Assembly: GCA_000002445.1 (NCBI GenBank)
Contig: CP000068.1
Coordinates: forward strand, 768,001-832,000
DNA from: Trypanosoma brucei
Taxonomy: Eukaryota
Length of the DNA: 64,000 bases
Reading direction: 5' to 3'
The notes beneath the pieces are model-generated. The model searched no databases. It was not told the DNA's origin and saw only the letters and a list, made by a program, of their open reading frames with translations. Below are positions 31,279 to 53,213 of this stretch, one piece after another. A program made the position numbers and the translations under genes. The stretch's first letter is position 1; each line of letters opens with the position of its first letter.

Positions 31279-32164
31279 TGTTATTGCTATACAATTATGT
31301 TATTATAAATGTTCCTTTTTACAATTTTGATGTATTTTCCTCTCTTCTTCTTTTACTCATGTAGCTTTTTTTTTTCATTCTCATTTTCCAACTTCTTCTT
31401 TCGTTTATTATTGTTGTTGTTTTTTTCTGTTTTTTTTTTGCATGAAACGTTTTCATGTAAATGTTTTACATTTGTCTTCGTCTCTCTTTTTTTTTTTTAT
31501 ATACTGACTCAATATGGTTCGTCGGACCTCTTTTTTATTTTAAAAAAAAAATAAGGAAAAGGTGGAGAAAAGAAATAGAAATTATTATCTCACCCGAAAC
31601 GCTGCAATAACCCCTGGGTTTGTGTAAGTCGTTTGCCAATACGTTATTGTTGTTGTTTTTGTTCTTTTTTTCCATTGCGGTAAATATTTGTCTCTTATTT
31701 CCTTTTCCTTTTCCTTCCGTGCTTTGATGAATTATCTGACTGATTTTTTATTCTAAAAAATTTTGTTCCTTCTTTATTTATTTATTTATTTTTCCCCCTT
31801 CCCATTTTCTTTGCATAATTAACTTTTGTGCATTTCATTATGTAAAGGCTCAAGTATAGTCTACACAAAAGGTAACGCCATAGTGCTGGGGGAAAAGGTT
31901 TATTTTTTTTAATTTTATTTTTCATCTTCTTGAAGAAACTTCAAAGAAAAGAAGTTTAAACCAAAGAAAAAAAATCAGTGAAGAAGGTTAAACAGAAAAG
32001 AAAGGGAAGAGGAGGAAGAGAAAGAAGAAAAGGTGTACCAATACACAATAAAAAAAAAAAGGACAGTGACGAACTTCCAGAAAGAGAAGTGTAAAAAAAC
32101 AACAAAAATAAAATATTAAACAGTTCAGGATTTGTGCTGTTACGGTGAGTCCCAATTACATTTC

Positions 32165-34062
32165 ATGAGCAGTGAGCCAACTGTTGATGAATCATCTAAG
32201 CAGCATTGTAACCAGTTAGCCGTCCCAGAGGCTGCGGTAGCGCCAACAGAACCCCAACACACCACCAATTCTCATTTAAATGACGGAAAGGAAGTAAGTG
32301 TGCAACTCGGGGAGCTTGACGAAACACCAGAACATTTACACCCTCTGGTTCATCAAATTAATACATTAAATGAGTGTGATCTCCTTCACATTGCTGAAAT
32401 AACGGAATATGTCGTCACTCGAGATGTCTATTCGAGTTTACCATGCCGAGGTGGCAGTTGGTTCCTGCCAGAGGTACGTAACGTGGAGGATAATGAACCG
32501 CAGAGGTGTCTTTCATGCATTGGTCGCGGTACAGTTTGCGTGACAATTTGTGGGCGGCGCATTATGTTTCCCATCCTGAGGATGTGTTTGTGTGCGATGA
32601 TAATTGCCCTTGTGTGGTTTACGCTCTGGAATGCGTTACCACATTCCTTGCTTGAGCCCGGTGGGTATATTTGGGATACGGCTACTATTGTAATTGTTTC
32701 TTCATTCCTCGGTGGCTTAGTATGCCGAGTATTACAGCTTCCAGCACTTGTAGGAGTTCTTTGGGTTGCCATTGCTTGGAATAATATTCCTTACGAGGGG
32801 TATCTAACATCAGGTATCGGGTTAGGTATAAAAGACATTTCTTCCAAATTTGGTCTTACTGTGATCATGGTGCGTGCCGGGTTCTCCGCCTACTTAAGTG
32901 GTATCGCTCTTCACTGGAAGCATACGCTAATGCTATCATTTATTCCTTTTGCCCTTGAAACAGTCGCGCATGCACTTATCGCCAGCGCTGTTTTCCCCTA
33001 CTACGATTTTAACTGGGCCGTTGTGCAAGGCTCAATTTGCTCTATTGTATCGCCTGCCGTAGTGGTACCCGGTGTGCTTTATTTACAAAATATGGGTTAT
33101 GGTCGTGGCTCTGGGCCCCTTTCTCTCATGGTGTCATCAGTGGGTATAGAGGTGGCAGTTGGGGTTTGGCTTGCAAGCACTTTTTTGGAGAGGATATTTT
33201 TTCAGCAAAGCCTCTTGACTTTCGGGCTTGTTGGTATTGCACAGCTTTTTGGTGGTGCGGGTCTCGGTATAATACTTGGGGTTGCCTTCTTCTACTTTGT
33301 GGAGTTATTTAAAGGCGATGTGCAACGACTTCCGAATGGTAAATTGCAGAAGAAATATCTCTTTCCCGTATTAGACCTGGTCACGTTTGTATTCCTTACA
33401 GTTGCCGCCCTTTTGGTTTTTTCGGGTATGCCGTTAGCCTTGCCGGTGGAGGTTGTATTGCATGCGTATTGTTTGCGAGCACAATGACTCATATGTGTCT
33501 GAGGAAAGGTAATCCAGAATTGGAGGCGCAAAGGAAATATATTGGTAAACGACTTGCACAAGTGTGGGACAACTTGATGATGCCCATCCTTTTCGCCATG
33601 ATGGGAGCAAAGTTAAGTACCGCATCTGTATTTAGCAGAGACTTCTTTCCAAAAGTCCTCGCATGTTTCTTTGGAAGTACGGCTGTTAGATTGGCCGCAA
33701 TATTTATTGTTCAAACTCGCTCTGGATTATCACTGCGGGAGAAACTGCTTGTTTGCGTGGGTTACTGTGGTAAAGCCTCAGCACAGGCATCACTTGGCCC
33801 CGTAGCGACCGCTTTGGTGGCTACTAAAATGGCATCACTTTCTGATGGAGAAGAACCGAGTGTTGAACTCTTGAAGATGAAAAAGTTCGCAGAAAATGTG
33901 CAGCAGGCATCCGCTACATATGTCATGTTTCTGGCAGTTGTGGCTTCTGTGGGACTCATGCGCGGTGGTTTGGCGCTGTTTCAAAAGCAAGAGAGAAGAC
34001 TTCGGGAGGGATCTGAACAGGATAGCGGAACCAGGGAGGAAGAAATGGAACAGAAGGTGTAG
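32165..34062 (+). CDS. Polytopic membrane protein, possibly a cation/proton-antiporter-like (Na+/H+ exchanger fold) transporter. The reading frame is broken by an apparent frameshift between 33343 and 33487.
   Basis: Two consecutive ORFs, 32132-33487 in frame 2 and 33469-34062 in frame 1, are both dominated by hydrophobic TM segments and look continuous in character. The second starts only at a TTG in the track. The first real ATG of the upstream part is 32165 (MSSEPT...). The family assignment is tentative; it rests on general resemblance (LPALVGVLWVAIAWN..., GLTVIMVRAGFS...), not a firm motif. Confidence 0.55.
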
Positions 34063-34960: not shown

Positions 34961-35554
34961 GCGTGTCTGAATTTCTTCTTTCCTTATATTTCTCACTAGA
35001 AAGAAAAAGGAAAGGTGAGGCAACGTCATTACGAGCGAAAGAAACGTTGTTTAGATAGCATTAATAAATAAATAAATTTATTAACACGCCGCATTTACAT
35101 TGGATAGATAGCACAAGGAGAGGGGGAGGAAAAAAACAAACAAACAAACTTGTGAGGATCACGTGAGTGGTTGTGTGCCGCGTATTGTAAAGAAAAGAAG
35201 TTTTGTACACAAACGGAAATTATACACCGCGGTGCACAAGAGTGGTGATTTTACAAGAGCTGAGAGTTTAAAGAAAGAAAAAAAACGACAAAAGAAATTA
35301 GGAAGAGAAATAACAACAAAGAGGTGTACGGTAGCGGTAATACCGGCGCGCAACGATATTGGGAAGATTATATATACACACATATACACACACATATATA
35401 TATATATATAGTTTTTAGCATATAGATAAATTTATTTATATATTTCTTACACGTATACGAAGAAAAAAAAGAAGGAGATTCCTTTTTTTTTGTTCACTCA
35501 GCAAATTGCGAAAGTAGTGAGACTCATCAAGCAGAAAAGGAGGCATTGCATCCG

Positions 35555-37642
35555 ATGTCTCGACGTGTATTGTGGGAATCGGTTCGGCAGGAGGCACGTA
35601 GCAGGGTTGAAGGCGTCAATGCATCACCCATCAGCACGAATGGAATAATAGAGGCACGAGATAAAAGTGATGGTTTGATTACATACGAGGAAGGTGGAGG
35701 CGTCAGCGGCGTTGCAAACGATAATGAAGGGGGATCTCACGGTAAAATCGGGAATATGGCCACAGTGTCACAAGAGAATCGGGATACACAAAATCATGCA
35801 ACTGGTTCACACGATAGCATAATCGCCAGTTGTGATATTAGTTGCATTCCAAAAGATAAGCACGAGTTGCACGGGCCTCCTTCGCACCTTTCACGTTGTG
35901 GATCATCTCCTGAAGCTGAAGGAAATTGTTCCGCTACCGCAGACCCAACGCAGTCGCATTTAACGGATCTGGCTATTTCTGTGCTGCTGGAAACGGGAGG
36001 GGATACACATCAAGACAAGGGTTACAATACGGGGCTTGATGTAAACAACAGCCGCTTCAATAGTTCGGCTACAAACAACATACATCGAGAGCTGGCGCAG
36101 GAAAAACAAAAAAACATTGCTGCTGAGCAACGATTGCTGACGCTGGAGAAGAAAATCAGGGCCCTGCGCGAGGAGAATCAGCATTTACTACTTTCTTCCG
36201 CCACAAATGCAACTGACAGGAAGATGATGAAGGGCGCGACTTCGGCTTACGCTGAGGGTGAAGTTGTTGGCCATGGTGTGCAACGTGACTTTGCGGATGA
36301 AGTTACAGACACAGCTGGGGAAGAGCTACTAGCACTGAAGCGGCGTTGTGATGAGTTGGAGGTTCGGCTCGGTGAATTAACGGCACAGGTGCGACAGAAG
36401 GACCAAGAATTAGAGCAGAAGGAAAATCGAATAAGGCAATTAGAGCACATAATTGCCAACGATCTAATTCGCCGATCAGCGGATGTGAACAAAGAAGAGA
36501 ATACTCAAGGCAGAAGTGAGGGGGTCGGCCGCAGCTCCCCAAAAGTTGAATTTAGTGTGAAAAAAGACGTACCCGGGAAGAAGAACAGCTCAACCCAAGG
36601 AACAAACGGTGTAGTGAGTAGAGAATCACCAACGACAGCCGCTGCCCGCGAGACGGCTTCGTCCACAGCTGCAGCTCCACCCGGATTGAACTTAGGGGAC
36701 TTGCGTTCAGTCGAGGCTCTGCAACGACTGTTACTGTCCAGCATTGAGGCTACTAACTTATTGGTCGATAGTTCAAGAGTGTCTAAAGGAAAGGAAATGG
36801 ATACCTTATCGGTGCCCTCCTCCCTCACGCACGGGTCGTCGCATCTTGCCGAAGGGTACACGCGTGTGAGTACTTCAGATGTCAAGCAGCGTCCCCTCCG
36901 CGTAGTGAGACAAGGGGAAATAGTAAGCCATTCAGCGACCTCTAGAGCTTCATCAGCTGCAGGTGTGCGTGCGTCTCCCAGTCGCCATGGAGCGAGACAC
37001 CGCGCCTCCTCCGTCCCCGGAAGGTGCAGTGAGTCGCGTGCCTCTTCAGTGAGGGCAATTCGACAGAGAGGACCATCGAGTGATTCGCCCATGCGAGAAG
37101 CAGCGATGTTTGCGCGTATATCAAGCGCCCCCGGGTGTAGCAAAGCAACTTCGTCTCTCTCTTCACGTCGCCCTCCGACCCAAAAGCTTCTCAGTGGTCG
37201 CATTCCGTTACGCTCCACAGAACTCTTTAGCAATGTGACCCATATGAACCGCTTCTCACAGTACCAGAATGCTCGACGAACCTCGCGCCCGGACGCATGT
37301 GCATCCGCCGCCTCGCCAAAAAGTAGCTGCTCGACGAACAAATCAAACGGCCGAGCTCCGAACGTGAAAAAATATGTTACACCTAGGGCCCGTGCTCGAC
37401 CACGAATTGGCGTCGAGGCCACAGCCAGGAGTTTAAAATGCTCACCTCCACAGAAGCCTAGTACAACGGTCATCACCCGCGTTGAAAAGCAACGTGAAAG
37501 AACTCCACCAACACCTGTTCGCCGGGCAGAATATGTGAAAGAGGTGTTATCACAAGACCCATTTGTGTCTGAAATGTTTAAAACAACTTACCGACCCAAC
37601 CGACTGGTGCGGTGCAGCAAAGAGGAAGGGGAAAGTGTATGA
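35555..37642 (+). CDS. Hypothetical protein (~695 aa) with a central coiled coil and an S/R/P-rich basic C-terminal half
   Basis: A long ORF. The track starts at a TTG at 35546; the first in-frame ATG is 35555 (MSRRVLW...). The coiled coil includes LQELAQEKQKNIAAEQRLLTLEKKIRALREENQHL. The antisense ORF 36505-37476 is treated as a shadow. Confidence 0.6.
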   Translation: MSRRVLWESVRQEARSRVEGVNASPISTNGIIEARDKSDGLITYEEGGGVSGVANDNEGGSHGKIGNMATVSQENRDTQNHATGSHDSIIASCDISCIPKDKHELHGPPSHLSRCGSSPEAEGNCSATADPTQSHLTDLAISVLLETGGDTHQDKGYNTGLDVNNSRFNSSATNNIHRELAQEKQKNIAAEQRLLTLEKKIRALREENQHLLLSSATNATDRKMMKGATSAYAEGEVVGHGVQRDFADEVTDTAGEELLALKRRCDELEVRLGELTAQVRQKDQELEQKENRIRQLEHIIANDLIRRSADVNKEENTQGRSEGVGRSSPKVEFSVKKDVPGKKNSSTQGTNGVVSRESPTTAAARETASSTAAAPPGLNLGDLRSVEALQRLLLSSIEATNLLVDSSRVSKGKEMDTLSVPSSLTHGSSHLAEGYTRVSTSDVKQRPLRVVRQGEIVSHSATSRASSAAGVRASPSRHGARHRASSVPGRCSESRASSVRAIRQRGPSSDSPMREAAMFARISSAPGCSKATSSLSSRRPPTQKLLSGRIPLRSTELFSNVTHMNRFSQYQNARRTSRPDACASAASPKSSCSTNKSNGRAPNVKKYVTPRARARPRIGVEATARSLKCSPPQKPSTTVITRVEKQRERTPPTPVRRAEYVKEVLSQDPFVSEMFKTTYRPNRLVRCSKEEGESV

Positions 37643-40306: not shown

Positions 40307-43300
40307 ATGAATCGCAAGGGGTATAAGGCTCTTCCAAGGGAATATGATGAGGGTTTTAGTGAGGAAAGAGTTAGGCATGCATTGAACAAAGATGCTCCCA
40401 GCAAAATATATGAGGAGTTCATTGTGCAGAGGTTGCAGGAAATTATGGAAACTGCTCAGTCTGATTCGAAGAAACCTGCCACATTCGGGCGTGCAGCCGC
40501 CGCAGACGTTTTTTTGCGTCAAGATGCACCCATTACTGTAACATTTGCTATGCTGGCGACTTCGTGCGCGATGCACCCCACTACCGACGTTGTTACGTTT
40601 TCAGTGTTGTTCGCCGCGCTGTACACGTCGTGCATGGCATTGCAGGTACTTCTTTTATGGTTACGCATAACCGAAAAGAGACAGTCAGCTATTTCTGTCA
40701 TGCAAAAAGTCCTCACACGGTGGAAAAAGCGTCTCGTAGAGGGACCACCGAGGGATAAATTGGATCGCCGCACTGTGTTTCGTTTGTTTTCTTCTTTCCT
40801 TCCAGCTAGCGCCTTTCGTATTGTGGCTGTTGTGGATACAACGACGGGGCGGCTAAAGCGTACTCTGAAATGTCTTGTGATGAAAGGGGCTCTTCGACTT
40901 CAAAGGACGACGTTGAAGGTGAGTCGTCACACGGAGCCAATTGAGTTATTTAAACTCGTCGACATCGTGCGAATGATACTGAAGGGTGAAGCCGTGATGT
41001 TGAGATCACTTCCAGATATGGCTCCTCCACCCCGGCACCCAAACGTAACCGTCGACGCCAACATCAATGGTACAGGGGTAGAAGGAAATGACGAGGACAT
41101 ATCAACAGATGAGAGTGATGACGAATACGACACGCGATGTGAGGCGAATAGTGTTCATGCGCTGTCGGTACCGCAACAGATGGCTTTTCTTGTGTATCGC
41201 TTCGTTCTTCTTGCTTGGTTGCTGGGCATCGTGGCGTGTACTTTTTCTGGTTACATATATCACGTACTCACCGATATCCCGCTGAGTGACGGCGTCTTTC
41301 TGAATCCTGCTGTAGCATTACTTGGGTTACTACCTGTAAACGCAAAGTTGCTGAATAGCATCCTCGTTATGTATGCGAATGTGAACCTTGAGTGTCTATT
41401 TCGTCATCTTGTCTCTAAAACCACACACGCTGTTGATGATCGGATTCCGAGACTTCCCTTCCGGGCAACTATGCAAGCTTTCCGCCGTGCCACATCAGCT
41501 ACCTGCAGTCGACCCCCATTATGTTTTTCTTCCTCATTGGTCGAAACACTTGGAACCACAACCGTCGTGGCTCTGCTCGACACAACAGGCGTAGTGACCG
41601 ATATGGTTCCTCTTCCCACACGGTTGCTTATGCTTAAGAGTTACACAGCACCGGAAACCCCCAGTAGCACAAGCAGCACTACAACCAGCGATAGCGATAA
41701 CGACGAATTTAATGGCGCTGCTGCCTTTACAGGTCTTGATCATAGCAATGACCCGGACCCGTTCCTGAGAGCAGCGAACTTTGACCCAGAGTATCGTTTG
41801 GCGTTGAAGCGTCAAGTCCGGCAAAAGAAAACACAGAAGAGGAGGTTCCTGGAGTTGCAACTTGCACCTGGTACCGATGATGATCTTGCTGTGCAGTTTG
41901 CCGACTGCAAGGAGCGGCAAAAGTGGGAAAAGAATGTGGACTCCCTTTCACTGTGTTTGTTGATTCATGCTATGGCACCTGAGCCGACCAAATTCGAAAC
42001 GTGGCAGGAGCCGCTTAGGTTTTGTGACCAAACACCCCGGTGGGGTCCCAGCATACACTGGGTGCCGCGTGCAAGCGAATTCGATGATTCATTAGCTAAG
42101 TCATTTCGAATTGTGGCACGTATATTTCATATCAATACGGTGTCTTGGCCGGGACGCTCCAGAGAGTGCCCGGAACAGACTTGCACGCTCCTGGTGGTCG
42201 CCAGTGATGGTCTATTACACGCATTTACTGTCGGTACCGTTTGTATGGTAACTCACAGTTGCCCATTTCACTTTAACGGCTATGAAATTGAAGGGTTCGA
42301 TGAAGAGTTACGAGAGGAAGTAGTTAATACTGGCACAGTGGTGTGGAAAGACGGAAGAGGATTGGAAACCGTGGCGGCCTCGCACGCTATGCTACCGGAC
42401 AAATTTCGTTCCTGTGCAGAGGCTTTGCCGCGGGAGGACGGCTCGTACGCTGAGTTTTTGTTTTATAATGGGGTGCAGATTACCGCTGAGAACTGTCTAG
42501 CCGAACTTAAGTTGTCTCCATCGGGGGAACCGTCGACAAATGGATGTGAGGGGACAAATGAAGGGGTACCACGCGAATGTTTCCTAGGAGTGCCGACGAA
42601 CACGAATGGTTCAACGCCTGCAACCTCTGAAGCAGACGTTATAGGTGCCATCAACAGCAACGAGAGAGATGCAATCAACGAAGGGAATAGCTTCTGTTGC
42701 AGCAAGGGATTTACAGACATTCATGGAAACTCCCGCCTTTCGTTTGTTCCCACTTCTGTTGAACTACTAGGCGACCTTCTTCATGTTCTTATTAACGGCT
42801 CGCACGCCTTCTTGGGGCTTGTTGGACTTCAGGATTCCATTCGCCCCAATGTACAGAATGCGATGTCAGTTCTTGATGAAGCAGGTATCCGTTGCATGTA
42901 CTTCTGCTCTGACGGTGAAAGGCGGACCAAAAGCCTCGGAAATCGCTTGGGCCTTGAAACGGATTGGAACTGCTGCATTTCTTTGGACGAAGGAGCCAAG
43001 GACCTTGACGCTCACAGCATTCGAGCACAGCTACCAGTGGGGATAAAGTCCATTAGGCGACATATCGTACACGTAGACTCCATTCCATTGCAGGTTAATA
43101 TGTTTTCCCACGCACACAGCGCATCGACGCGTGCGATGCTTTCCATCTTGCAAGACAACCACGAGGTTGTGTCCGCCATTGGGTCGACGTTCAACCATAG
43201 CAACGTTCGGAGCTACATTCAGGCGGACTTGTCTGTTGGAGTTCTTCCGCAGAGGCGCGGAGCTGTAGAAGACAAGGAGGGACTATGCTTAGAAAATCAA

Positions 43301-44506
43301 AAGCGTATTAGTGAATCATCTGATATTCGTAGTATGAAGTCTGAGACTGGTGATCAGTTACTCTATCGCGATGTAGTGGACCTGATTGGCTGTGCCTGCA
43401 CGCTCTCGGATACCTCGACCACCTCAATGTTACCGATAGTGACAACTTTGATTCGACAGGCAAGGTTTCGGCTAAGTGGAATAGGCAATTGCATTTCCTT
43501 TGTGATGCATGCAAACTTTTTTGTTACATTTTTGAATGTAATACCCTTGATAATTGGTGGGCCGCTCCTGATACAGCCAGCAGCTGCGGTGTTTGAGCTC
43601 AATGTTATCATACCCATCCTAGCTCTCTCGTGCACCTACACTGCGTATGCGGACAAGGACCCAATGAAGAGCATTCAATCGAGGCATAATCATTTCGTCC
43701 GACTTAAAATATTGCGTCACAGTGCTGTCGTGTGGTGCCTGCGGTACATTCCCTCACTTGCCGCGTTGTTGGCTCTGGGCATAACGTGTGGTTTACAAAA
43801 GTGTGATAAGGGAAGTTTGCATGAGCTCGCGCTCTCTTCATCCGATAAATGTATGGCTGCAACGCGTGGTTACATTGGACTCACGTTGAATTATTGGCTG
43901 ATGTTTCACAGCTGGACGCACATGAGTCGTTACGACAGACTTTCACCCGCATTTCTATTTAAACCTCGTTACGGTGGACAATACATGTACTTATTCACAT
44001 CTGCTCGGTGGGTCGCTGCCAATGCGCTAACCGTATTCTTCAGTGTTGCGTTTGTTGTCGCGGAAACCTTCTGGGACGGCATACTTGAAGACGCCTTCTT
44101 TCCATCACGCACTCACTTCTACATCTCCGCCTTCTTCCCCGTGCTGTTGGTGTTATTGGATATACCAATAAAGTCGTGGAGGTTGAAGCGCGCAACTTTA
44201 ATGCAAAAGTTCCGTCAGTTGTCTTTCGGTACGCGGCTGGGGATGCATTCACCGCGAGGAGACTATGAACCGGAAGTTGGTTCGGCCACCGGTTGTAGCG
44301 GAGGAGCCAATGAGTGCGGAGGCGGGGTACAGGGAAGCACATCAGACGCCAACGTACGTAATGAACTACCGCTGCGGCGTAGGTTGCAGGATGCCTTTTA
44401 TCGCTTCACAACCATGCGCAGGGGAAAACTGGAACTTAACTGCGTATGTTGTGATCATATCGGGGGTAACTACGCCACGTATCACATTAACGCAAACGAC
44501 ATGTAA
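40307..44506 (+). CDS. Large (1399 aa) polytopic P-type-ATPase-like membrane protein with degenerate catalytic motifs (pseudo-ATPase)
   Basis: VETLGTTTVVALLDTTGVVTD aligns to the P-type ATPase phosphorylation loop ETLG...ICSDKTGTLT. The Asp is kept at 41579-81, but K becomes T and T becomes V. LGLVGLQDSIRPNVQNAMSVLDEAGIRCMYFCSDGERRTKSLGNRLGL aligns to the P-domain helix ...GIRVIMITGD...A.AIA...GI, with TGD replaced by SDG. AIGSTFNHSNVRSYIQADLSVGV sits where GDGVNDAPAL..ADIGIAMG would be, so the Mg-binding aspartates are lost. TM clusters lie on both sides, consistent with the M1-M4 and M5-M10 topology. Confidence 0.8.
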   Translation: MNRKGYKALPREYDEGFSEERVRHALNKDAPSKIYEEFIVQRLQEIMETAQSDSKKPATFGRAAAADVFLRQDAPITVTFAMLATSCAMHPTTDVVTFSVLFAALYTSCMALQVLLLWLRITEKRQSAISVMQKVLTRWKKRLVEGPPRDKLDRRTVFRLFSSFLPASAFRIVAVVDTTTGRLKRTLKCLVMKGALRLQRTTLKVSRHTEPIELFKLVDIVRMILKGEAVMLRSLPDMAPPPRHPNVTVDANINGTGVEGNDEDISTDESDDEYDTRCEANSVHALSVPQQMAFLVYRFVLLAWLLGIVACTFSGYIYHVLTDIPLSDGVFLNPAVALLGLLPVNAKLLNSILVMYANVNLECLFRHLVSKTTHAVDDRIPRLPFRATMQAFRRATSATCSRPPLCFSSSLVETLGTTTVVALLDTTGVVTDMVPLPTRLLMLKSYTAPETPSSTSSTTTSDSDNDEFNGAAAFTGLDHSNDPDPFLRAANFDPEYRLALKRQVRQKKTQKRRFLELQLAPGTDDDLAVQFADCKERQKWEKNVDSLSLCLLIHAMAPEPTKFETWQEPLRFCDQTPRWGPSIHWVPRASEFDDSLAKSFRIVARIFHINTVSWPGRSRECPEQTCTLLVVASDGLLHAFTVGTVCMVTHSCPFHFNGYEIEGFDEELREEVVNTGTVVWKDGRGLETVAASHAMLPDKFRSCAEALPREDGSYAEFLFYNGVQITAENCLAELKLSPSGEPSTNGCEGTNEGVPRECFLGVPTNTNGSTPATSEADVIGAINSNERDAINEGNSFCCSKGFTDIHGNSRLSFVPTSVELLGDLLHVLINGSHAFLGLVGLQDSIRPNVQNAMSVLDEAGIRCMYFCSDGERRTKSLGNRLGLETDWNCCISLDEGAKDLDAHSIRAQLPVGIKSIRRHIVHVDSIPLQVNMFSHAHSASTRAMLSILQDNHEVVSAIGSTFNHSNVRSYIQADLSVGVLPQRRGAVEDKEGLCLENQKRISESSDIRSMKSETGDQLLYRDVVDLIGCACTLSDTSTTSMLPIVTTLIRQARFRLSGIGNCISFVMHANFFVTFLNVIPLIIGGPLLIQPAAAVFELNVIIPILALSCTYTAYADKDPMKSIQSRHNHFVRLKILRHSAVVWCLRYIPSLAALLALGITCGLQKCDKGSLHELALSSSDKCMAATRGYIGLTLNYWLMFHSWTHMSRYDRLSPAFLFKPRYGGQYMYLFTSARWVAANALTVFFSVAFVVAETFWDGILEDAFFPSRTHFYISAFFPVLLVLLDIPIKSWRLKRATLMQKFRQLSFGTRLGMHSPRGDYEPEVGSATGCSGGANECGGGVQGSTSDANVRNELPLRRRLQDAFYRFTTMRRGKLELNCVCCDHIGGNYATYHINANDM

Positions 44507-45342: not shown

Positions 45343-48087
45343 ATGGTGCCATCCATCCCTCAACTACTGCTTGAGCTTCCGGTGGTTTGTGTTAGTGAAA
45401 ATCATTTACTGAATGGTCGCCTTACTTTGTCCGTTAAAGATGCAACCGCTACCGCGCAGTCATATTACGGTGCTGTGGAGAAGTACTTGCAAGGTAGGGA
45501 ACCCCATCTGGACTTGGAAAAAGATGTTGTCCCAGCCATTGACTTTGCCCTGCGTCTTTTTAACGCGGAGAACTTTAGTGGGGAGTTAGTGCCAGCGGAG
45601 CGGGAGCAGCTGTCTACCGTGCTGGATCGCTACGCCACCGTTGACACGCTGCACGAGCGCTATGTACAGCGTTTGTTAATGAGCGATGGTGAAATGCCTC
45701 ATCCCTGTGTGCGACTTAGTAGGATGTTGCTGGCTGTTCTCGCTACTGCGTGCAGTTCGGTGAAGCATGCCGGACAGTCACAGCCGCAACCGCTGCTGCC
45801 TTACACCTCCGTTTGGCGTCTGCGTTGTCACATGCGTCACCAGCTAATCATGCAGCACCGTGCCCACTCAATATTTCTTCACCTCTCGTCTTGCGTGGAT
45901 GCTGCCCTCGCACTGCCAGACGAATCACTTACGGCTGAACATCTGCTGGAAGTCGGCCACGTGCAGAACTATTACCATCAACGTGAACTAGCAGCGGAAG
46001 TGTTTTGGCGTGCGGCGAGGAAAAGCGGTTTATCAGTCAGCGAAGACACCATGGTTGGCGTGCGAACCCGGTGGCAACAACAGCGGATGGTGCAGATGGT
46101 CGTGAACGCCAGCAGCCAGGTTCCCTTTGCTGCTCCAATATCCGAAAGTGACGCAACTGGAGGTGATGTGCCCCTAGCTGTGATGAGCGAAAAAGATGGA
46201 CATGATTTACTGGATCGACCCCGCGAAGCGGCTGAGGCTCCGGTGGCCGAATTGCAAGCGCTGCAACCACTGGATAAGGCTATCATGCTCGCTTTGTGTA
46301 TAGATATACGGAACACTAATCCATATCATGGGCTGACGCAGCACCGCATGCAGACGTACGTAGAGCGGCTTCTGTCTGATCCAGTTCCCGCACCTTTCAT
46401 CATACAGTGCCAAACACTGTTGCTGCGAGCTCGCCTAGAGCGAGGTCGGAACCGAGTTCAGGAGCGTGCCTTCATGCAGATGACTGAGCTAGTGGACCAA
46501 CATTCGGCCGGTCGTGATCCCAACCGCGCGACGTTTCACAGAACAGATAGCGACTACTTTTACAGTGTTGCCTATCCGTCAATTTGGCAATTGCGAAGTG
46601 AGTATGCTGACTTCTGCTTCGATGAGAGCCTTGTGAAAACGGCACTCGACGCTTATGAGCAGGTGCAAGACTGGGAGAACATCATAAAATGTTGTAAAGT
46701 TCTTGACAAGAGGAGGAGGGCAGAATCCCTAGCGCGAGACCTGTTGGAGTCTGACCCCTGCAACCCACTTTTGTGGGTGGCATTGGGGGAAGCCACGAGG
46801 GAAGCCGAGCACCTTACGAAGGCATGGGAATTGTCTGACCATCGATCTGCGGCACCCATGCGAGCTCTGGCGCGGTTGGCACTCGAGCGTGAAGAATATG
46901 AGCGGGTTGTGGAATGTTTCGATGAGGCAGTGCGTCTCAATCCAGTGTTTGGTGGAGACTGGTTTGCCTTAGGCTATGCTGCAATGCAATTAAAGCGATG
47001 GGAACGCAGTGGTGAAGCCTTCACTCGCGTCTGTCAGATTCAACCCAACGATGCGTACGCGTGGAATAACCTAGCATCAGTACTGCTTCGCACAGGGAAG
47101 CTTCGTCCCGCATTTAATGCGATGAACCAGGCACTGCGCAACAACCGGAGAGACTGGCGGATGTGGCAAAACTACTTCGCGATTGGGTGTGAATTGAAGG
47201 AGGTAACTGAGACAACAAATGCTCTCAACGTGTTGCTGGACATTGCCCAACGTAACGTTCATCTAGAGCGCGGTTCGCTGAACCGCTTTGTGGAGAATGC
47301 CATTGCGTATATGGAAGGACGGATACCCGCAAGTTGCAAAGATCAACAGATGACAGAAGAAGATCAAGAACAGGCGGTGGAGCAGGAAGCAGAAAATAGA
47401 GACGAAGGTGGGAGGATGCACCGAGCGGCTGTCACTAACACCTCGGCTACCCGCATGGGTGTGGAAGATGACAGCATCGCCACCAATGGAAATCATGTTA
47501 ATCCTTCTGATGAAGATGCGATGTGTGATATTGTGCCATTGTGTGCGGATATTGATTTACCAGACATGTGTTCTCCATCTACTAATGCGGCAGCTGCGGA
47601 GGAAGCTGAGCGCGTGCGTGAAGGTGTAATTAGCCGATATAAGTTCCGTTTGCGTGAGACATTTAAACGGATCATCGACCTATTTGTGACGGATCCGGAC
47701 ATATACGCCTGTGCGGCGAAGCTTCTACGATACATGGATGGACCGCTAACTGCTTACGAAATGCGGCAGAAGGAACTTCGGTGTTGTCAGCAAAAGGACC
47801 AATGGGAGCGCGACACTGCACGATTTGCACGGACATGTGAATGTCTTAATGATATGTCTAGGGATTTGTTGGATGCGGTTGATTATTGTGGGGATAGTGT
47901 GGATAATTTGAAGAAGAACAATATTGTAACGGTTTTAAGTGACACGGTGAATAACGTTATAGCCGCCCTTGAAGCGTCAGAGGAGTACATGGAAGAAACG
48001 GCAGAATACAAGCAACTGCGCGGCGAGCTTCTCCCACGTATGCGAAAAGCTCTTAAGGAGACCAAAACTCGCATTATGGCCGACTGA
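45343..48087 (+). CDS. TPR-repeat protein, TTC27-like
   Basis: C-terminal TPR units: NPVFGGDWFALGYAAMQLKRWERSGEAFTRVCQIQPNDAYAWNNLASVLLRTGKLRPAFNAMNQALRNNRRDWRMWQNYFAIG. The W..W.NY ending resembles the TTC27 C-terminus as I recall it. An acidic stretch lies in the C-terminal third. The orthology is inference. Confidence 0.6.
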   Translation: MVPSIPQLLLELPVVCVSENHLLNGRLTLSVKDATATAQSYYGAVEKYLQGREPHLDLEKDVVPAIDFALRLFNAENFSGELVPAEREQLSTVLDRYATVDTLHERYVQRLLMSDGEMPHPCVRLSRMLLAVLATACSSVKHAGQSQPQPLLPYTSVWRLRCHMRHQLIMQHRAHSIFLHLSSCVDAALALPDESLTAEHLLEVGHVQNYYHQRELAAEVFWRAARKSGLSVSEDTMVGVRTRWQQQRMVQMVVNASSQVPFAAPISESDATGGDVPLAVMSEKDGHDLLDRPREAAEAPVAELQALQPLDKAIMLALCIDIRNTNPYHGLTQHRMQTYVERLLSDPVPAPFIIQCQTLLLRARLERGRNRVQERAFMQMTELVDQHSAGRDPNRATFHRTDSDYFYSVAYPSIWQLRSEYADFCFDESLVKTALDAYEQVQDWENIIKCCKVLDKRRRAESLARDLLESDPCNPLLWVALGEATREAEHLTKAWELSDHRSAAPMRALARLALEREEYERVVECFDEAVRLNPVFGGDWFALGYAAMQLKRWERSGEAFTRVCQIQPNDAYAWNNLASVLLRTGKLRPAFNAMNQALRNNRRDWRMWQNYFAIGCELKEVTETTNALNVLLDIAQRNVHLERGSLNRFVENAIAYMEGRIPASCKDQQMTEEDQEQAVEQEAENRDEGGRMHRAAVTNTSATRMGVEDDSIATNGNHVNPSDEDAMCDIVPLCADIDLPDMCSPSTNAAAAEEAERVREGVISRYKFRLRETFKRIIDLFVTDPDIYACAAKLLRYMDGPLTAYEMRQKELRCCQQKDQWERDTARFARTCECLNDMSRDLLDAVDYCGDSVDNLKKNNIVTVLSDTVNNVIAALEASEEYMEETAEYKQLRGELLPRMRKALKETKTRIMAD

Positions 48088-49465: not shown

Positions 49466-52400
49466 ATGCCACCGCCCACATCTGTTGCCTCAACGGCACG
49501 CTCCAGCAGTGGTGCAACTATCAAACGAAAGGTGGATGACCGCATCCGCAAGGTTATTGAGAATGCCGTACACAAGCGGCATCGCGCACTTCTACTGCTT
49601 GTGGGTGACCGCGGAAAAGATCAAATTGTTAATCTTCACCAGATGGTTTCACACGCCAACCACAACGCAAAGGTGAATGTGTTATGGTGCATGAAGAAAG
49701 AACCGGACTTCGGATCAACAAGCCTTAAACAACAAGAGAAGAAGGCGCGACTTGAGGTGAAGGGTGGAATGTCTACCGATGCAACGAAAGAAGCCTTTCA
49801 GACATTTCTTTCGCAAACCATTATAAGGTTTTGTCAATACAAGGAAACACATAAAATACTTGGGCAAACGTTTGGTATGGCGGTGCTACAAGACTTCGAG
49901 GCTATGACACCCAACACATTGGCGCGAACTATTGAGACCGTGAAGGGAGGTGGCATTATTGTAATAATGTTTCGCGCAATGAAGTCACTGAAGCAGTTAT
50001 ACACCATTGCTATGGATGTCCACTCTCGGTATCGCACAGAGGCTCTTCAAGATGTGGTCCCGCGCTTCAACGAGCGATTCCTTCTTTCTCTAGTTGATTG
50101 CGACACATCACTTTGTGTGGATGATGATCTTAACGTGCTTCCAATCACCGCCAAAATGTGTGCCGTAGAGAGTGCACGAACAACGTCGTATGATGAAACA
50201 TTAGTTCTACAAGGGCGACAAAAGCACGAAGCGGACTTGGCTGCACTAAAGGAACGCCTACGGGCCAGTAATGAAGTGGGGCCACTCATTAGCCTATGCC
50301 AAACACTCGACCAAGGCAAGACCATTCTTTCACTTATGCAGACGGTTGTGGAGAAGTCGCTAAATACAACATGTGTTGTTACTGCTGGTAGGGGTCGTGG
50401 TAAATCTGCAGCACTTGGACTTGCGACTGCTGGCGCTGTGGCACAGGGGTACAGTAATATCTTCTGCACAGCACCATCGCCAGAAAATTTACAAACATTT
50501 TTCGAGTTCGTTGTGCGTGGGTTGCAGGAGCTTGGGTATAAGGAACGCACAGACTTTGAAGCCATGCAAAGCACGAACGTCGAGTTCAGCAAATGCATTA
50601 TACGTATTAACGTTTTCCGCGAGCACAGACAAACTGTTCAATACATTTCTCCGAACGACGCATCAAAGTTTGCACAGGCGGAGTTGGCGATTATTGACGA
50701 AGCTGCAGCCTTGCCGTTGCCGATTGTTAAACAAATGCTCGGCCCGTACTTAGTGTTTCTTTCTTCGACCATCTCCGGTTACGAGGGCACAGGCCGGAGC
50801 CTCTCCATGAAACTTGTTGCAGACATGCGAAAGCACAGTGGAAGCACTAATGCCTCAGTGGCAGGTGACGACCGCCGGCTTCTTCGCGAGTTATCCATGT
50901 CAGATCCTATTCGTTATGGTCCCAATGACCCTGTGGAGTTCTGGTTGAACAAACTGCTGTGCCTTGACGCCACCGTCCGACCGATCGCCGTGAAATCCTC
51001 TCCACACCCAAATTCTTGTGAGTTGTACTACGTGAACCGTGACGCACTCTTTTCTTATCACCCTTTGGCCGAACAGCTGCTGCAGGCAATTGTGGCCATG
51101 TTAGTTGCCGCCCACTACAAAAATCAACCCAATGACCTGCAGCTCATGTCCGATGCACCCGGTCATCACCTCTTCATACTATGTCCCTCTACTGTGGATG
51201 CAAAGAGCGGCATTCCAGACGTATTTTGTGTAATTCATGCATGCGAGGAGGGACACGTTTCGTCCGAAGCAATCAAAAGTAACCTCAGCCGGGGGTTGCG
51301 CCCTTCTGGGGACCTAATTCCCTACACCCTATCGCAGTATTATCTCGAAGAGGGATTTGCAAAACTTGCAGGTCTACGAATTGTTCGTATTGCCACAAAC
51401 CCGGAGTTGCAACGCGCCGGATACGGCTCGCGCGCTCTCGAGCTACTGCAGCAGTACTACACGGGCTCTGTGTCGTTACGTCCTGCCGCGTCTGCTGCTG
51501 CTACAGAAAACAATACGGAATTAAAAGCAGTGGACGATGCCGATGAAGTGAGTAGCACCATCTCACATACCATCAAACCGCGCAAACGCATACCCAGCCT
51601 TTTAGTGCCTCTCATTGAGAGACCTTATGAAGAGATTGACTACCTTGGCGTGAGTTTTGGTGTGACAACGCCTCTGTTTAACTTCTGGAAGCGGGGAGGG
51701 TTCGAGCCACTGTACCTACGTCACGCGGCGAATGAGTTAACTGGAGAGCATAGTTGCGTTATGGTTCGCTCGTTTGGATTTGACCTCGGGCTACTCCGTG
51801 CTGAGTTCCGTCGTCGATTTATTCCCCTTTTAGCGATGCCATTTCGCCAACTTCCAACAGAATTGGCACTGAGTATATTAAAGGATGTTGATGTTAATGA
51901 CCCACAAAAATTAGCAGCTGCCACTGACCTCTCTCATGTGGCGGAGCATAATGTCCGCGTGGCAGGCCAGCCTCAGTGTACATGGAAGGAACTGCAGGAA
52001 ATATTCAGCATCAGCGATTTGAAGAGGTTAAAGCTAAATGCCACTACATTTGTCGAGGGTGGCCACGTTTTGGACCTCGTTCCTGCTTTAGCGAAATTGT
52101 ATTTTGAGTCGCGTTTATTTCACCTTCCCGATGGGGCAGAGGGTGTCGTACTCTCCCACGCGCAGGCTGCAGTACTTTTAGGCGTTGGGCTTCAGTGCCA
52201 AACTATTGAGGAAGTTGGTCAGCAGGCGGTATTTTCTGGCGTACCAACACAGCAGCTGCGTGCCTTTCTACAGAAGGCAATTTCTCGTATAGTAGACCAT
52301 TTCACGCGCCTGCAGAAGCTGAAATTGACTGGATCAAAAGAAGAAGAGACTGTGAAAAGGAATGGGGGGAATGACGATGCGGATGAAAACACCCATGAGA

Positions 52401-52585
52401 TTTACGATAAGGAGGGACGTGTAGTTGGGTTATCCGTGGAAAAGAGAGTCCGGAGTGTAATTAATGTAGATTCGACTTTGCTGCGCGACGCGAAGTCGGC
52501 AACAGTCGGAGCAAGAAATGATGCAGGAGGAACAACAGGATTGCAGCGGGCGTTCAAGCGGTCAAAGAAAACTCGTCGCGGCTGA
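49466..52585 (+). CDS. NAT10: RNA cytidine acetyltransferase NAT10/Kre33 (helicase-like ATPase domain plus GNAT acetyltransferase domain)
   Basis: The N-terminus RIRKVIENAVHKRHRALLLLVGDRGKDQIVNLHQMVS is the conserved NAT10 start. The Walker A is TAGRGRGKSAALGLA. The GNAT acetyl-CoA motif is RIATNPELQRAGYGSRALELL. The length of 1039 aa is typical. Confidence 0.9.
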   Translation: MPPPTSVASTARSSSGATIKRKVDDRIRKVIENAVHKRHRALLLLVGDRGKDQIVNLHQMVSHANHNAKVNVLWCMKKEPDFGSTSLKQQEKKARLEVKGGMSTDATKEAFQTFLSQTIIRFCQYKETHKILGQTFGMAVLQDFEAMTPNTLARTIETVKGGGIIVIMFRAMKSLKQLYTIAMDVHSRYRTEALQDVVPRFNERFLLSLVDCDTSLCVDDDLNVLPITAKMCAVESARTTSYDETLVLQGRQKHEADLAALKERLRASNEVGPLISLCQTLDQGKTILSLMQTVVEKSLNTTCVVTAGRGRGKSAALGLATAGAVAQGYSNIFCTAPSPENLQTFFEFVVRGLQELGYKERTDFEAMQSTNVEFSKCIIRINVFREHRQTVQYISPNDASKFAQAELAIIDEAAALPLPIVKQMLGPYLVFLSSTISGYEGTGRSLSMKLVADMRKHSGSTNASVAGDDRRLLRELSMSDPIRYGPNDPVEFWLNKLLCLDATVRPIAVKSSPHPNSCELYYVNRDALFSYHPLAEQLLQAIVAMLVAAHYKNQPNDLQLMSDAPGHHLFILCPSTVDAKSGIPDVFCVIHACEEGHVSSEAIKSNLSRGLRPSGDLIPYTLSQYYLEEGFAKLAGLRIVRIATNPELQRAGYGSRALELLQQYYTGSVSLRPAASAAATENNTELKAVDDADEVSSTISHTIKPRKRIPSLLVPLIERPYEEIDYLGVSFGVTTPLFNFWKRGGFEPLYLRHAANELTGEHSCVMVRSFGFDLGLLRAEFRRRFIPLLAMPFRQLPTELALSILKDVDVNDPQKLAAATDLSHVAEHNVRVAGQPQCTWKELQEIFSISDLKRLKLNATTFVEGGHVLDLVPALAKLYFESRLFHLPDGAEGVVLSHAQAAVLLGVGLQCQTIEEVGQQAVFSGVPTQQLRAFLQKAISRIVDHFTRLQKLKLTGSKEEETVKRNGGNDDADENTHEIYDKEGRVVGLSVEKRVRSVINVDSTLLRDAKSATVGARNDAGGTTGLQRAFKRSKKTRRG

Positions 52586-53213
52586 AATCGAAGGGCTAAC
52601 AGTTATTCACGTGTTTGTAAGGAGGGTGAGCCTTGTGTACTAATGAGAAGAAAGCAGTGAAAATAAACGGGAAGAAATGAGAGTTAAGCCAAAAGTAACG
52701 CAACGCAATTTTTAGCGTCTATGCCATCCGAAATGAGCACCGATGCTCAAAGAAAAAAATAACGAAAAGGGGTATTCATTCACCTTTGGTACGTTTTGTA
52801 TGTGCATATCCGTGGCTGATTAAAAGATAATCGGGTAAACTAACTGTTAAACTGGGTTCTCTCTGTGGTGAACTCCACATGACCTCTCGATATGATAAGA
52901 TTTTTTTTAAAAAAAAGGGGACGCATCGTGTTGCTTTCCCCTTCTCTCCTGTTCCTAGTAAGATGTCATTACCGTCACTTATTTCCTCCGTCTTACTCCT
53001 GTCTCCATTTTTTTTTAAAGGAAAGTTGGTGACAACCAAGCACTCGTTGTGGCAAAAAAAAAAAAAGAACAGACCCCCAATACTGTTTTTTTTTCTTTTT
53101 CACCTTATATTTACTTTCATAAATACTAGCGTGCATACACATCATAGAGATATTCATTGGTGTTTGTACCTCTTTGCAGACACTTTGACGTCCTGTTACG
53201 TTTGTTGGTTATT

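What the first reader, a model, noticed from the sequence alone, without database searches (positions are those of the whole stretch)
40307..44506. Degenerate P-type ATPase (pseudo-ATPase): the fold is kept but the DKTGT, TGD and GDGxND catalytic residues are replaced
The 1399-aa membrane protein aligns motif by motif to P-type cation pumps, yet three hallmark catalytic motifs are altered:
- ETLG-TTTVVALL-D-TTGVVTD (41573-41602) replaces ETLG..ICSDKTGTLT. The phosphorylated Asp is kept, but K becomes T and T becomes V.
- IRCMYFCSDGE (around 42905-42919) replaces the TGD motif.
- AIGSTFNHS (43181-43198) replaces GDGVND, so both Mg-coordinating aspartates are lost.
The surrounding helix of the P domain (GLVGLQDSIRPNVQNAMSVLDEAGIR...SLGNRLGL) is well conserved. 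This argues that structure is under selection while chemistry is not. Such proteins are usually non-pumping scaffolds or regulators; the human TMEM94-type large ATPase-like protein has, as I recall, a debated function. In a kinetoplastid this would be a poorly characterised family member worth experimental attention.
Basis: partly seen in the sequence, partly recalled or inferred. Interest (0 to 1): 0.7.

Follow-up and report, generated by a model that had tools for sequence, protein, structure and literature searches.

The report
Trypanosome TMEM94-type degenerate P-type ATPase
This gene encodes the Trypanosoma brucei copy of TMEM94/ERMA, an ancient eukaryotic membrane protein that keeps the shape of an ion pump but has lost most of the pump's catalytic residues, so it is a new, more eroded member of a known and disputed family, not a new kind of protein.

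Summary
ORF 40307-44506 (+) encodes a 1399-aa protein identical to T. brucei TREU927 XP_844923.1/Q582B6. The three altered motifs sit at the stated coordinates.

The protein is the kinetoplastid orthologue of human TMEM94/ERMA. Best PDB hit is 9jjk (E 6e-20 alone; E=0 with a family profile). The AlphaFold model (pTM 0.81) matches 9jjk best (Foldseek E 3e-33, TM 0.61-0.69), then SERCA.

The family is pan-eukaryotic: 839 representatives at 50% identity. It derives from P2-type pumps (profile vs SERCA1, E 2e-34, five collinear stretches).

The "degenerate" motifs are family hallmarks:
- The Asp is kept in 88/92 representatives.
- GS-x-x-N-x-x-N replaces GDGVND (Ser in 125/148).
- There is no TGES.

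Specific to kinetoplastids or trypanosomatids:
- Loss of the Lys of DKxG (0/9 against K/R in 74/83).
- A buried Glu1097 in TM6.
- A conserved CVCC tail.

Several residues reported essential in human ERMA (K1091, K1256, D692, GMN) are not conserved here.

Whether the family pumps Mg2+ is disputed for the human protein and cannot be settled from sequence. I favour no canonical phosphoenzyme cycle. Verdict: new member of a known kind, moderate interest.

The parts
40307..44506 (+). Complete ORF, 1399 aa; T. brucei TREU927 XP_844923.1 / UniProt Q582B6; TMEM94/ERMA-family orthologue
40526..40741 (+). TM1 and long TM2 helix (aa 74-145)
   Evidence: hydropathy; helices 74-89 and 93-145 in the N-terminal model
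40757..40993 (+). Reduced A-domain-like region (aa 151-229): four short strands and two helices. No TGES; PGD/PAD motifs lost.
   Evidence: family consensus 'RDG..P..LLV.GD...L..G...P' seen in other members
40994..41161 (+). Acidic, predicted-disordered loop before TM3 (aa 230-285)
   Evidence: pLDDT below 50 in both models
41168..41416 (+). TM3 and TM4 (aa 288-370). TM4 is broken at L338-P343 ('LLGLLP'). P343 equals human P327 of PILP; the first Pro is Gly in kinetoplastids.
   Evidence: helix break in the models; mapping; literature on the unwound TM4
41561..41605 (+). Phosphorylation-motif equivalent TVVALLD425TTGVVTDM. Asp and Gly are kept; Lys and Thr of DKTGT are replaced.
41624..42796 (+). 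N-domain-like insert (aa 440-830) with two low-complexity, disordered stretches. The KGAPE equivalent is FTVG643TVC (nt 42224-42262), with the Lys replaced by Val.
42833..42847 (+). DPPR equivalent D843-S-I-R846-P. Asp and Arg are kept in all kinetoplastids.
42890..42919 (+). TGD equivalent RCMYFCSDGE (family consensus GIRFVYFS). D869 is not conserved among trypanosomatids.
42938..43105 (+). Family-specific, most conserved P-domain block: GLETDWNCCISL ... RAQLPvGI..IR.H...VD924.iPLqV.mF
   Evidence: family-wide invariant columns
43169..43213 (+). GDGVND equivalent VSAIG959S960TFN963HSN966VRS. Both Mg-coordinating Asp are replaced (Ser, His).
43427..43627 (+). TM5 and TM6 (aa 1041-1107). They carry H1068, N1070 (= human Q1100 = SERCA N768), the trypanosomatid-specific E1097, N1099 and the invariant P1103.
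43691..44230 (+). TM7-TM10 (aa 1129-1308)
   Evidence: helices in the model; collinear with SERCA TM5-10
44222..44275 (+). Family C-terminal motif SFGTRLGMHSP followed by the kinetoplastid RGDYEPE. Corresponds to the human 'GMN' motif.
44396..44482 (+). Kinetoplastid-specific conserved tail FYRFTTMRRGKLELNCVCCDHIGGNYATY

Best explanation
The gene encodes the T. brucei orthologue of TMEM94/ERMA. This is an ancient, pan-eukaryotic branch of the P2-type P-type-ATPase fold, with 10 TM helices and A-, P- and N-like cytosolic domains.

**Shown here**
- In the whole family the phosphoryl-transfer machinery is replaced: DK/RxG for DKTGT, FS for TGD, GS-x-x-N-x-x-N for GDGVND, and no TGES.
- The kinetoplastid lineage has gone one step further and lost the Lys next to the Asp.

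**Inferred**
- The protein most likely does not run the canonical aspartyl-phosphate (Post-Albers) cycle.
- The strongly conserved former active-site face (D425, R862, N888, D924, G959-S960, N966) would then act as a ligand-binding or regulatory pocket. It would be coupled through the kinked TM4 (P343) to the canonical intramembrane site. That site would be formed by N345, N1070 and, in trypanosomatids, H1068, E1097 and N1099.
- Through this coupling the protein would serve ion (possibly Mg2+) or lipid homeostasis of an internal membrane. That membrane is probably the ER, as in mammals.
For: **Orthology**
- Best PDB hits are human TMEM94 (E 5.9e-20). The family profile gives E=0 and 1108 bits over the full length.

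**Descent from P2 pumps**
- Profile vs SERCA1 gives E 1.8e-34 with 5 collinear stretches.
- Bacterial Ca-ATPases score E 1e-27 to 1e-15 in 5.8 billion proteins.
- 18 of 36 family members hit Pfam Cation_ATPase_C.

**Family size and spread**
- 839 representatives.
- Found in Discoba, Amoebozoa, CRuMs, early fungi, choanoflagellates, Metazoa and a dinoflagellate.

**Degenerate motifs under purifying selection**.

**Loss of canonical catalytic residues**
- K352 equivalent: 0/9 K/R in kinetoplastids, against 74/83 elsewhere.
- K515 equivalent is Val. D703 is Ser and D707 is His. No TGES.

**Human protein**: six cryo-EM conditions gave one conformation, no nucleotide at the Asp, no Mg2+ and no ATPase activity (PMC12134183).
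Against: - Purified human ERMA in proteoliposomes was reported to give ATP-dependent, vanadate- and ATP-gamma-S-sensitive Mg2+ uptake. The D427N mutant lost activity (PMC13322241).
- The Asp is almost invariant across the family (88/92). That is what one would expect if it were still phosphorylated.
- D843 and R846 of the DPPR motif are retained in kinetoplastids.
- No experiment exists for any kinetoplastid orthologue. I found no paper holding both 'TMEM94' and 'Trypanosoma'.
- Localisation in T. brucei was not testable here.
Confidence: 0.6

Rival explanations
1. It is an active ER Mg2+ pump (an ERMA orthologue). It would use ATP through a non-canonical mechanism, with D425 transiently phosphorylated or otherwise essential. 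Mg2+ would bind at the unwound TM4 and the TM5 amide residue (N1070).
For: - Orthology to human ERMA.
- Published ATP-dependent, vanadate-sensitive Mg2+ uptake in proteoliposomes, and loss of function in D427N, P334V and Q1110A/L.
- D425, G428, P343 and an amide at the Q1100 position (N1070) are conserved here.
- Trypanosomatids add polar or acidic residues near the canonical site (E1097, N1099, H1068).
Against: - The two lysines of the proposed non-canonical ATP site are not conserved: K1091 is N1061 and K1256 is D1210, and both positions vary family-wide.
- D692 is A632, and the first Pro of PILP is Gly.
- The 'GMN' motif is GMH here and in most lineages (H 53/86, N 15/86).
- Every canonical Mg-ATP ligand is missing.
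- An independent laboratory found no ATPase activity and no Mg2+ binding for the human protein.
Confidence: 0.27
2. It is a lipid-handling or anion-handling membrane protein. It could be a phosphatidic-acid-type lipid binder or transporter, or a lipid-regulated scaffold. It would use the P-type fold without ATP turnover.
For: - Both human cryo-EM studies see a lipid buried between TM3, 4, 5 and 7, next to the canonical site.
- One of them also describes a strongly positive cytosolic vestibule.
- The catalytic residues are lost.
Against: - No functional evidence exists in any organism. The authors themselves call it a hypothesis.
- The trypanosomatid-specific buried Glu1097 fits a cation better than an anionic lipid head group.
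Confidence: 0.1
3. It is a decaying pseudogene, an assembly or frameshift artefact, or a canonical pump whose motifs were misread.
For: None beyond the unusual motifs. Pfam finds nothing in the protein.
Against: - The reading frame is intact over 1399 codons.
- The sequence is identical in the TREU927 reference, with only 3-18 substitutions in other T. brucei-group isolates, none in the motifs.
- Full-length orthologues exist across Trypanosomatida and in Bodo, with the same altered motifs.
- The structure model is confident.
Confidence: 0.01

Closest known systems
Human/mouse TMEM94 (KIAA0195), renamed ERMA; PDB 9JJK-9JK5, 9YYD, 9YWQ
   Same: - Full-length collinear homology.
- 10 TM helices plus A/P/N-like domains.
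- Conserved Asp in a D-x-x-G motif.
- FS for TGD, GS-x-x-N-x-x-N for GDGVND, and no TGES.
- Kinked TM4 with a Pro, and an amide residue on TM5.
- C-terminal T(K/R)LGMxSP.
   Different: - Only about 18% identity.
- DTTGV instead of DKQGI; the Lys is lost in all kinetoplastids.
- GLLP instead of PILP, and GMH instead of GMN.
- K1091, K1256, D692 and E430 equivalents are not conserved.
- Smaller A-like domain.
- Extra buried E1097, plus N1099 and H1068.
- A 76-residue C-terminal extension ending in a conserved CVCC motif.
P2A-type Ca2+-ATPases (SERCA) and other P2 pumps
   Same: - Overall fold and domain order.
- Collinear profile match: E 1.8e-34 to SERCA1, with TM5-10 the strongest stretch.
- The Asp follows the first P-domain strand.
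- The D..R of DPPR is kept, N1070 lies on SERCA N768, and TM6 has a Pro.
   Different: - Lacks K and T of DKTGT, K of KGAPE, TGD, both Asp of GDGVND, TGES, PGD/PAD and the Glu of PEGL.
- No Pfam P-type domain reaches even E = 10.
- It is not listed in the motif-based inventory of 14 T. brucei P-type ATPases, where the only chromosome-5 entry is the 1011-aa SERCA.
Bacterial MgtA/MgtB (P3B Mg2+-ATPases)
   Different: MgtA has all canonical catalytic motifs. It is not the closest sequence relative; P2 Ca2+ pumps are.

Membership tests
TMEM94/ERMA family | Full-length, collinear sequence similarity to human TMEM94, better than to any other solved protein | tested here: met
   phmmer gives E 5.9e-20 to 9jjk against 0.016 or worse for canonical pumps. 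A family profile containing the T. brucei protein scores E=0, 1108 bits, over residues 13-1371 of 9jjk.
TMEM94/ERMA family | D(K/R)xG motif with a conserved Asp in place of DKTGT | tested here: inconclusive
   D425 and G428 are present and invariant. The Lys/Arg, present in 74/83 other representatives, is Thr here and absent in 9/9 kinetoplastid-like sequences.
TMEM94/ERMA family | GS(S/A)xNxxN in place of GDGVND, and (F/Y)FS in place of TGD | tested here: met
   G959-S960-T-F-N963-H-S-N966 aligns with human G1001SSANLRN. GIRCMYFC aligns with CIRFVYFS.
TMEM94/ERMA family | Family-specific P-domain block GLETxWNCxISL ... RAxLPxGI..IR.H...VD..PL.V..F | tested here: met
   Present at aa 878-933. 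G882, N888, L893, P910, G912, H919, D924, P927, V930 and F933 are invariant in 36 diverse members.
TMEM94/ERMA family | C-terminal T(K/R)LGM(H/N/Y)SP motif | tested here: met
   TRLGMHSP at aa 1309-1316. It is not terminal here, because a kinetoplastid extension follows.
TMEM94/ERMA family | Architecture of 10 TM helices with a broken TM4 and three cytosolic domains, resembling 9JJK | tested here: met
   - 8 TM helices in the aa 126-1324 model, plus TM1-2 in the N-terminal model.
- TM4 break at aa 338-343.
- Foldseek TM 0.61/0.69 to 9jjk.
TMEM94/ERMA family | ER localisation and a role in ER Mg2+ uptake | not testable with these tools
   Needs tagging, knockout and an ER Mg2+ sensor in T. brucei. 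No literature was found.
Canonical P-type ATPase (TC 3.A.3) | DKTGT(LT) phosphorylation motif | tested here: not met
   The sequence is DTTGVVT. Only D, G and the last T are kept.
Canonical P-type ATPase (TC 3.A.3) | TGES dephosphorylation loop and PGD/PAD motifs in the A domain | tested here: not met
   No TGE(S) string occurs. The aligned region reads LVMKGALRLQ. The A-like domain is reduced to 4 short strands.
Canonical P-type ATPase (TC 3.A.3) | KGAPE nucleotide-binding Lys | tested here: not met
   SERCA K515 aligns with V642, which is hydrophobic in all kinetoplastids.
Canonical P-type ATPase (TC 3.A.3) | DPPR motif | tested here: inconclusive
   The sequence is D843-S-I-R846. D and R are invariant in kinetoplastids; the prolines are lost.
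Canonical P-type ATPase (TC 3.A.3) | TGD and GDGVND (Mg2+-coordinating Asp703/Asp707 of SERCA) | tested here: not met
   CSD, with D869 not conserved, and GSTFNH.
Canonical P-type ATPase (TC 3.A.3) | Overall fold and common ancestry with P-type pumps | tested here: met
   - Profile vs SERCA1: E 1.8e-34.
- Foldseek to SERCA: E about 1e-19.
Canonical P-type ATPase (TC 3.A.3) | Formation of an aspartyl-phosphate intermediate | not testable with these tools
   Requires [gamma-32P]ATP labelling of the purified protein.

The most novel reading that the evidence does not exclude
Trypanosomatids may have re-tooled this already non-catalytic TMEM94 scaffold.
- After losing the Lys of DKxG, they acquired a buried Glu in TM6 (E1097). 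It accompanies N1099, H1068 and N1070, and probably N345, at the canonical ion site.
- They also carry a conserved Cys-rich (CVCC) C-terminal module that arose earlier, across kinetoplastids.
- The protein could therefore work as an ATP-independent cation or proton carrier, channel or sensor, different in mechanism from both classical pumps and mammalian TMEM94.

A corollary concerns the non-canonical ATP-site lysines and the GMN motif proposed for human ERMA. Because they are not conserved, they cannot be the family's core mechanism.
Probability: 0.12. Interest if true: 0.65.

Novelty: new member of a known kind. Interest (0 to 1): 0.4.

Why it matters
- TMEM94/ERMA is a human disease gene. 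Its mechanism is openly disputed: an ER Mg2+ pump, or not a P-type ATPase at all.
- This analysis shows that the family is ancient and widespread in eukaryotes. It separates family-wide constraints (the Asp, GS..N..N, D924, the TM4 and TM6 prolines, LGMxSP) from metazoan-only features (GMN, K1091, K1256, Q1100).
- The kinetoplastid protein is a natural 'mutant' lacking the Lys of DKxG. It sits in a genetically tractable organism, so it offers a direct test of which residues matter.
- For trypanosome biology, it adds a fifteenth P-type-fold protein that the motif-based inventory missed.

Tried and rejected
- **Pfam on the T. brucei protein alone.** No P-type domain even at E = 10; the only hit was a spurious RST match.
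- **Word-indexed search with the kinetoplastid alignment.** It returned only the same 8 proteins.
- **Word-indexed search with the 36-member family alignment.** It was swamped by bacterial Ca-ATPases. That helps as homology evidence but gave no names for eukaryotic members.
- **An alignment of 74 sequences** failed internally, so I used 36-38 sequences.
- **A mafft --keeplength mapping** gave wrong human numbering. I discarded it and redid the mapping.
- **The N-terminal 470-aa model** (pLDDT 73.9) gave no significant Foldseek match (best E 1.8). The A-like domain fold is therefore not independently confirmed.
- **Papers not held.** Vishnu 2024 (Mol Cell) and Palmgren 2024 (Cell Calcium) are not in the library. 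They are cited only through the papers that quote them.
- **One-to-one mapping of E1097/N1099 to SERCA T799/D800.** Rejected: the profile alignment puts F1096 on W794, so the register is uncertain by about 2 residues.
- **Pseudogene or sequencing error.** Rejected.
- **Canonical pump.** Rejected (membership table).
- **Gene neighbourhood.** The gene lies in a polycistronic unit with unrelated genes, so its neighbours say nothing about function.

Full report
**Observation**

The window has a single long ORF at 40307-44506 on the + strand, 1399 codons.
- LLDTTGVVTD: aa 423-432, nt 41573-41602.
- CSDGE: aa 867-871, nt 42905-42919.
- IGSTFNHS: aa 958-965, nt 43178-43201.

No TGES, TGE, DKTG or GDG string occurs in the protein. 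The protein is identical to T. brucei brucei TREU927 XP_844923.1 / UniProt Q582B6. It differs at 3-18 positions from other T. brucei-group isolates, and none of those positions lies in the motifs. All large ORFs of the window lie on the + strand, as expected for a trypanosome polycistronic unit. The neighbours are a TPR protein, a NAT10-type acetyltransferase, OSCP1 and an eIF2A-like protein. They are functionally unrelated.

**What it is**

Pfam does not recognise the protein. Against PDB sequences, the best hits are the three deposited human and mouse TMEM94/ERMA chains (E 5.9e-20 to 2.4e-18). Canonical pumps (CopB, ZntA, SPCA1) reach only E 0.016-0.17 over aa 818-899.

Full-length orthologues exist in T. 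congolense, T. vivax, T. grayi, T. cruzi, T. conorhini, Leishmania and Phytomonas at 43-64% identity. They share the same altered motifs.

An exhaustive profile search of 1.84 billion cluster representatives found 839 relatives at E <= 1e-3 and 549 at E <= 1e-10. Named members are:
- Discoba: Bodo saltans, the diplonemid Lacrimia, Euglena, and the heteroloboseans Acrasis and Willaertia.
- Amoebozoa: Heterostelium and Pelomyxa.
- CRuMs: Rigifila.
- Early-diverging fungi: Coemansia, Polychytrium, Lobosporangium and Sorochytrium.
- A choanoflagellate and a dinoflagellate.
- Animals: Saccoglossus 'KIAA0195-like', Strigamia and lamprey.

A 36-member family profile containing the T. brucei sequence gave these matches:
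- Human TMEM94: E=0, 1108 bits, over residues 13-1371.
- SERCA1: E 1.8e-34, in five collinear stretches. These cover the TM1-3/A region, the DKTG loop, KGAPE, DPPR to TGD, and TM5-10.
- Then H/K-, Na/K-, PMCA- and SPCA-type pumps.

The same profile hits bacterial Ca2+-ATPases at E 1e-27 to 1e-15 in a 5.8-billion-protein database. Eighteen of the 36 members, though not the T. brucei protein, reach Pfam Cation_ATPase_C.

**Structure**

An AlphaFold2 model of aa 126-1324 was built from 38 sequences (mean pLDDT 77.5, pTM 0.81). It has:
- Eight TM helices.
- A TM4 broken at L338-P343.
- A Rossmann-like P domain.
- A beta-rich N-like domain.

The three altered motifs each lie at or just after the C-terminal end of a beta strand, as HAD motifs I, II and IV do. 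The strands are aa 420-423 before D425, aa 862-866 before CSD, and aa 955-960 ending in GS.

A separate model of aa 1-470 shows TM1-TM2 and a small A-like region of four short strands. It found no significant Foldseek match.

**Residue-level comparison**

I rebuilt human TMEM94 residues 13-1356 from the printed alignments. Every mutated residue named in the 2026 paper then has the right identity at its position minus 10.

| Position (human to T. brucei) | Conservation |
|---|---|
| D417 to D425 | Asp in 88/92 representatives |
| K418 to T426 | K/R in 74/83 non-kinetoplastids; 0/9 in kinetoplastid-like sequences. Diplonemids and Euglena keep DK(T/A/D/E)G. |
| G420 to G428 | Kept |
| G1001SSANLRN to G959STFNHSN966 | G 143/148, S 125/148 (a single Asp), N966 135/147 |
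| TGD position | (F/Y)FS family-wide, CSD here; D869 not conserved |
| SERCA K515 to V642 | Hydrophobic in all kinetoplastids |
| DPPR to D843-S-I-R846 | D and R kept in kinetoplastids |
| P324ILP327 to G340LLP343 | Second Pro kept, first Pro is Gly |
| Q1100 to N1070 | Equals SERCA N768 in the profile alignment |
| K1091 to N1061 | Not conserved; position varies family-wide |
| K1256 to D1210 | Not conserved; position varies family-wide |
| D692 to A632 | Not conserved here |
| GMN to GMH | H 53/86, N 15/86 |

The most conserved part of the family is a P-domain block that canonical pumps lack (aa 878-933). D924 is invariant in 148/148 representatives.

Trypanosomatids alone carry Glu at TM6 position 1097. 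It is hydrophobic in 105 other representatives. It sits with N1099, H1068 and N1070.

In most eukaryotes the protein ends one residue after LGMxSP. Euglenozoa add a tail, and in kinetoplastids the tail ends in a conserved G-x-LE-x-x-CVCC-D-H-x-GG motif.

**Literature**

TMEM94 was renamed ERMA and proposed as an ER Mg2+ P-type ATPase.
- A 2025 cryo-EM study tested six conditions. It found one conformation, no nucleotide at the Asp, no Mg2+, no ATPase activity, no TGES, a buried PA-like lipid and a positively charged vestibule. The authors argued against the classification (PMC12134183).
- A 2026 study confirmed DKQGI, GSSANL and the missing TGES. It nevertheless reported ATP-dependent, vanadate- and ATP-gamma-S-sensitive Mg2+ uptake in proteoliposomes. 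It also reported an ion-like density at the unwound TM4 and Q1110, a putative non-canonical ATP site (K1101, K1266), and loss of function in several mutants (PMC13322241).
- No paper in the library holds both 'TMEM94' and 'Trypanosoma'.
- The motif-based 'complete inventory' of trypanosomatid P-type ATPases lists 14 T. brucei genes. Its only chromosome-5 entry is the 1011-aa SERCA, so this protein was missed.
- UniProt's automatic name for Q582B6 already reads 'Cation-transporting P-type ATPase C-terminal domain-containing protein'.

**Interpretation**

Shown:
- The gene is the T. brucei orthologue of TMEM94/ERMA.
- The family descends from P2-type pumps.
- The altered motifs are family-wide and under purifying selection.
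- The kinetoplastid lineage lost one further catalytic residue, the Lys.

Inferred:
- The protein lacks the canonical Lys and Thr of motif I, the KGAPE Lys, both Mg2+-binding Asp and the TGES loop. It probably cannot run the classical Post-Albers cycle.
- The conserved former active-site face and the kinked TM4, TM5 and TM6 site probably bind a ligand and couple it to the membrane domain.

The rival view, a real Mg2+ pump with unusual ATP use, rests on direct assays of the human protein and cannot be dismissed. However, several residues those assays single out are not conserved here.

1. The degeneracy is a family trait, not a local oddity.
2. The site is not free of selection.

**Verdict**

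This is a real feature, correctly spotted, and a new and more eroded member of a known, disputed family. Interest is moderate. It lies in the comparative leverage on the ERMA controversy and in the tractability of T. brucei.

Noticed in passing
window 44276-44503 (aa 1324-1399), conserved core 44396-44482: A C-terminal extension is present only in Euglenozoa. In most eukaryotes the protein ends one residue after LGMxSP. In kinetoplastids the tail ends in a conserved F(Y/F)R..(5)..G.LE..CVCCDH.GG motif, a possible palmitoylation or metal-binding site.
   Followed up: partly
window 43595-43603 (aa 1097-1099, TM6) and 43508-43516 (aa 1068-1070, TM5): A buried Glu1097 occurs only in trypanosomatids (8/8 plus one metagenomic relative). 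The position is hydrophobic in 105 other family representatives. N1099, H1068 and N1070 accompany it near the canonical ion-binding region.
   Followed up: partly
window 43076-43078 (aa 924) within 42938-43105: Asp924 in the family-specific block HVD.iPL is invariant in 148/148 representatives. It is more conserved than the 'phosphorylation' Asp itself. Its role is unknown, and no mutagenesis of the human equivalent (D966) was seen in the papers read.
   Followed up: no
window 49466-52585 (+): A 1039-aa protein with the full NAT10/TmcA RNA cytidine acetyltransferase architecture: TmcA_N, helicase, GNAT_acetyltr_2 and tRNA_bind_2.
   Followed up: no
window 45343-48087, 53157-54446 and 57553-59643 (+): The downstream genes are a 914-aa TPR-repeat protein, an OSCP1-family protein and an eIF2A-like beta-propeller protein. 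Several other ORFs (26831-27865, 32132-33487, 35546-37642, 55009-55977) have no Pfam match.
   Followed up: no
window 40994-41161 and about 41660-41775; about 42515-42750: Acidic or Ser/Thr-rich low-complexity loops are predicted disordered (pLDDT below 50). They are length-variable among trypanosomatids, and Leishmania carries a much longer insert in the N-like domain.
   Followed up: no
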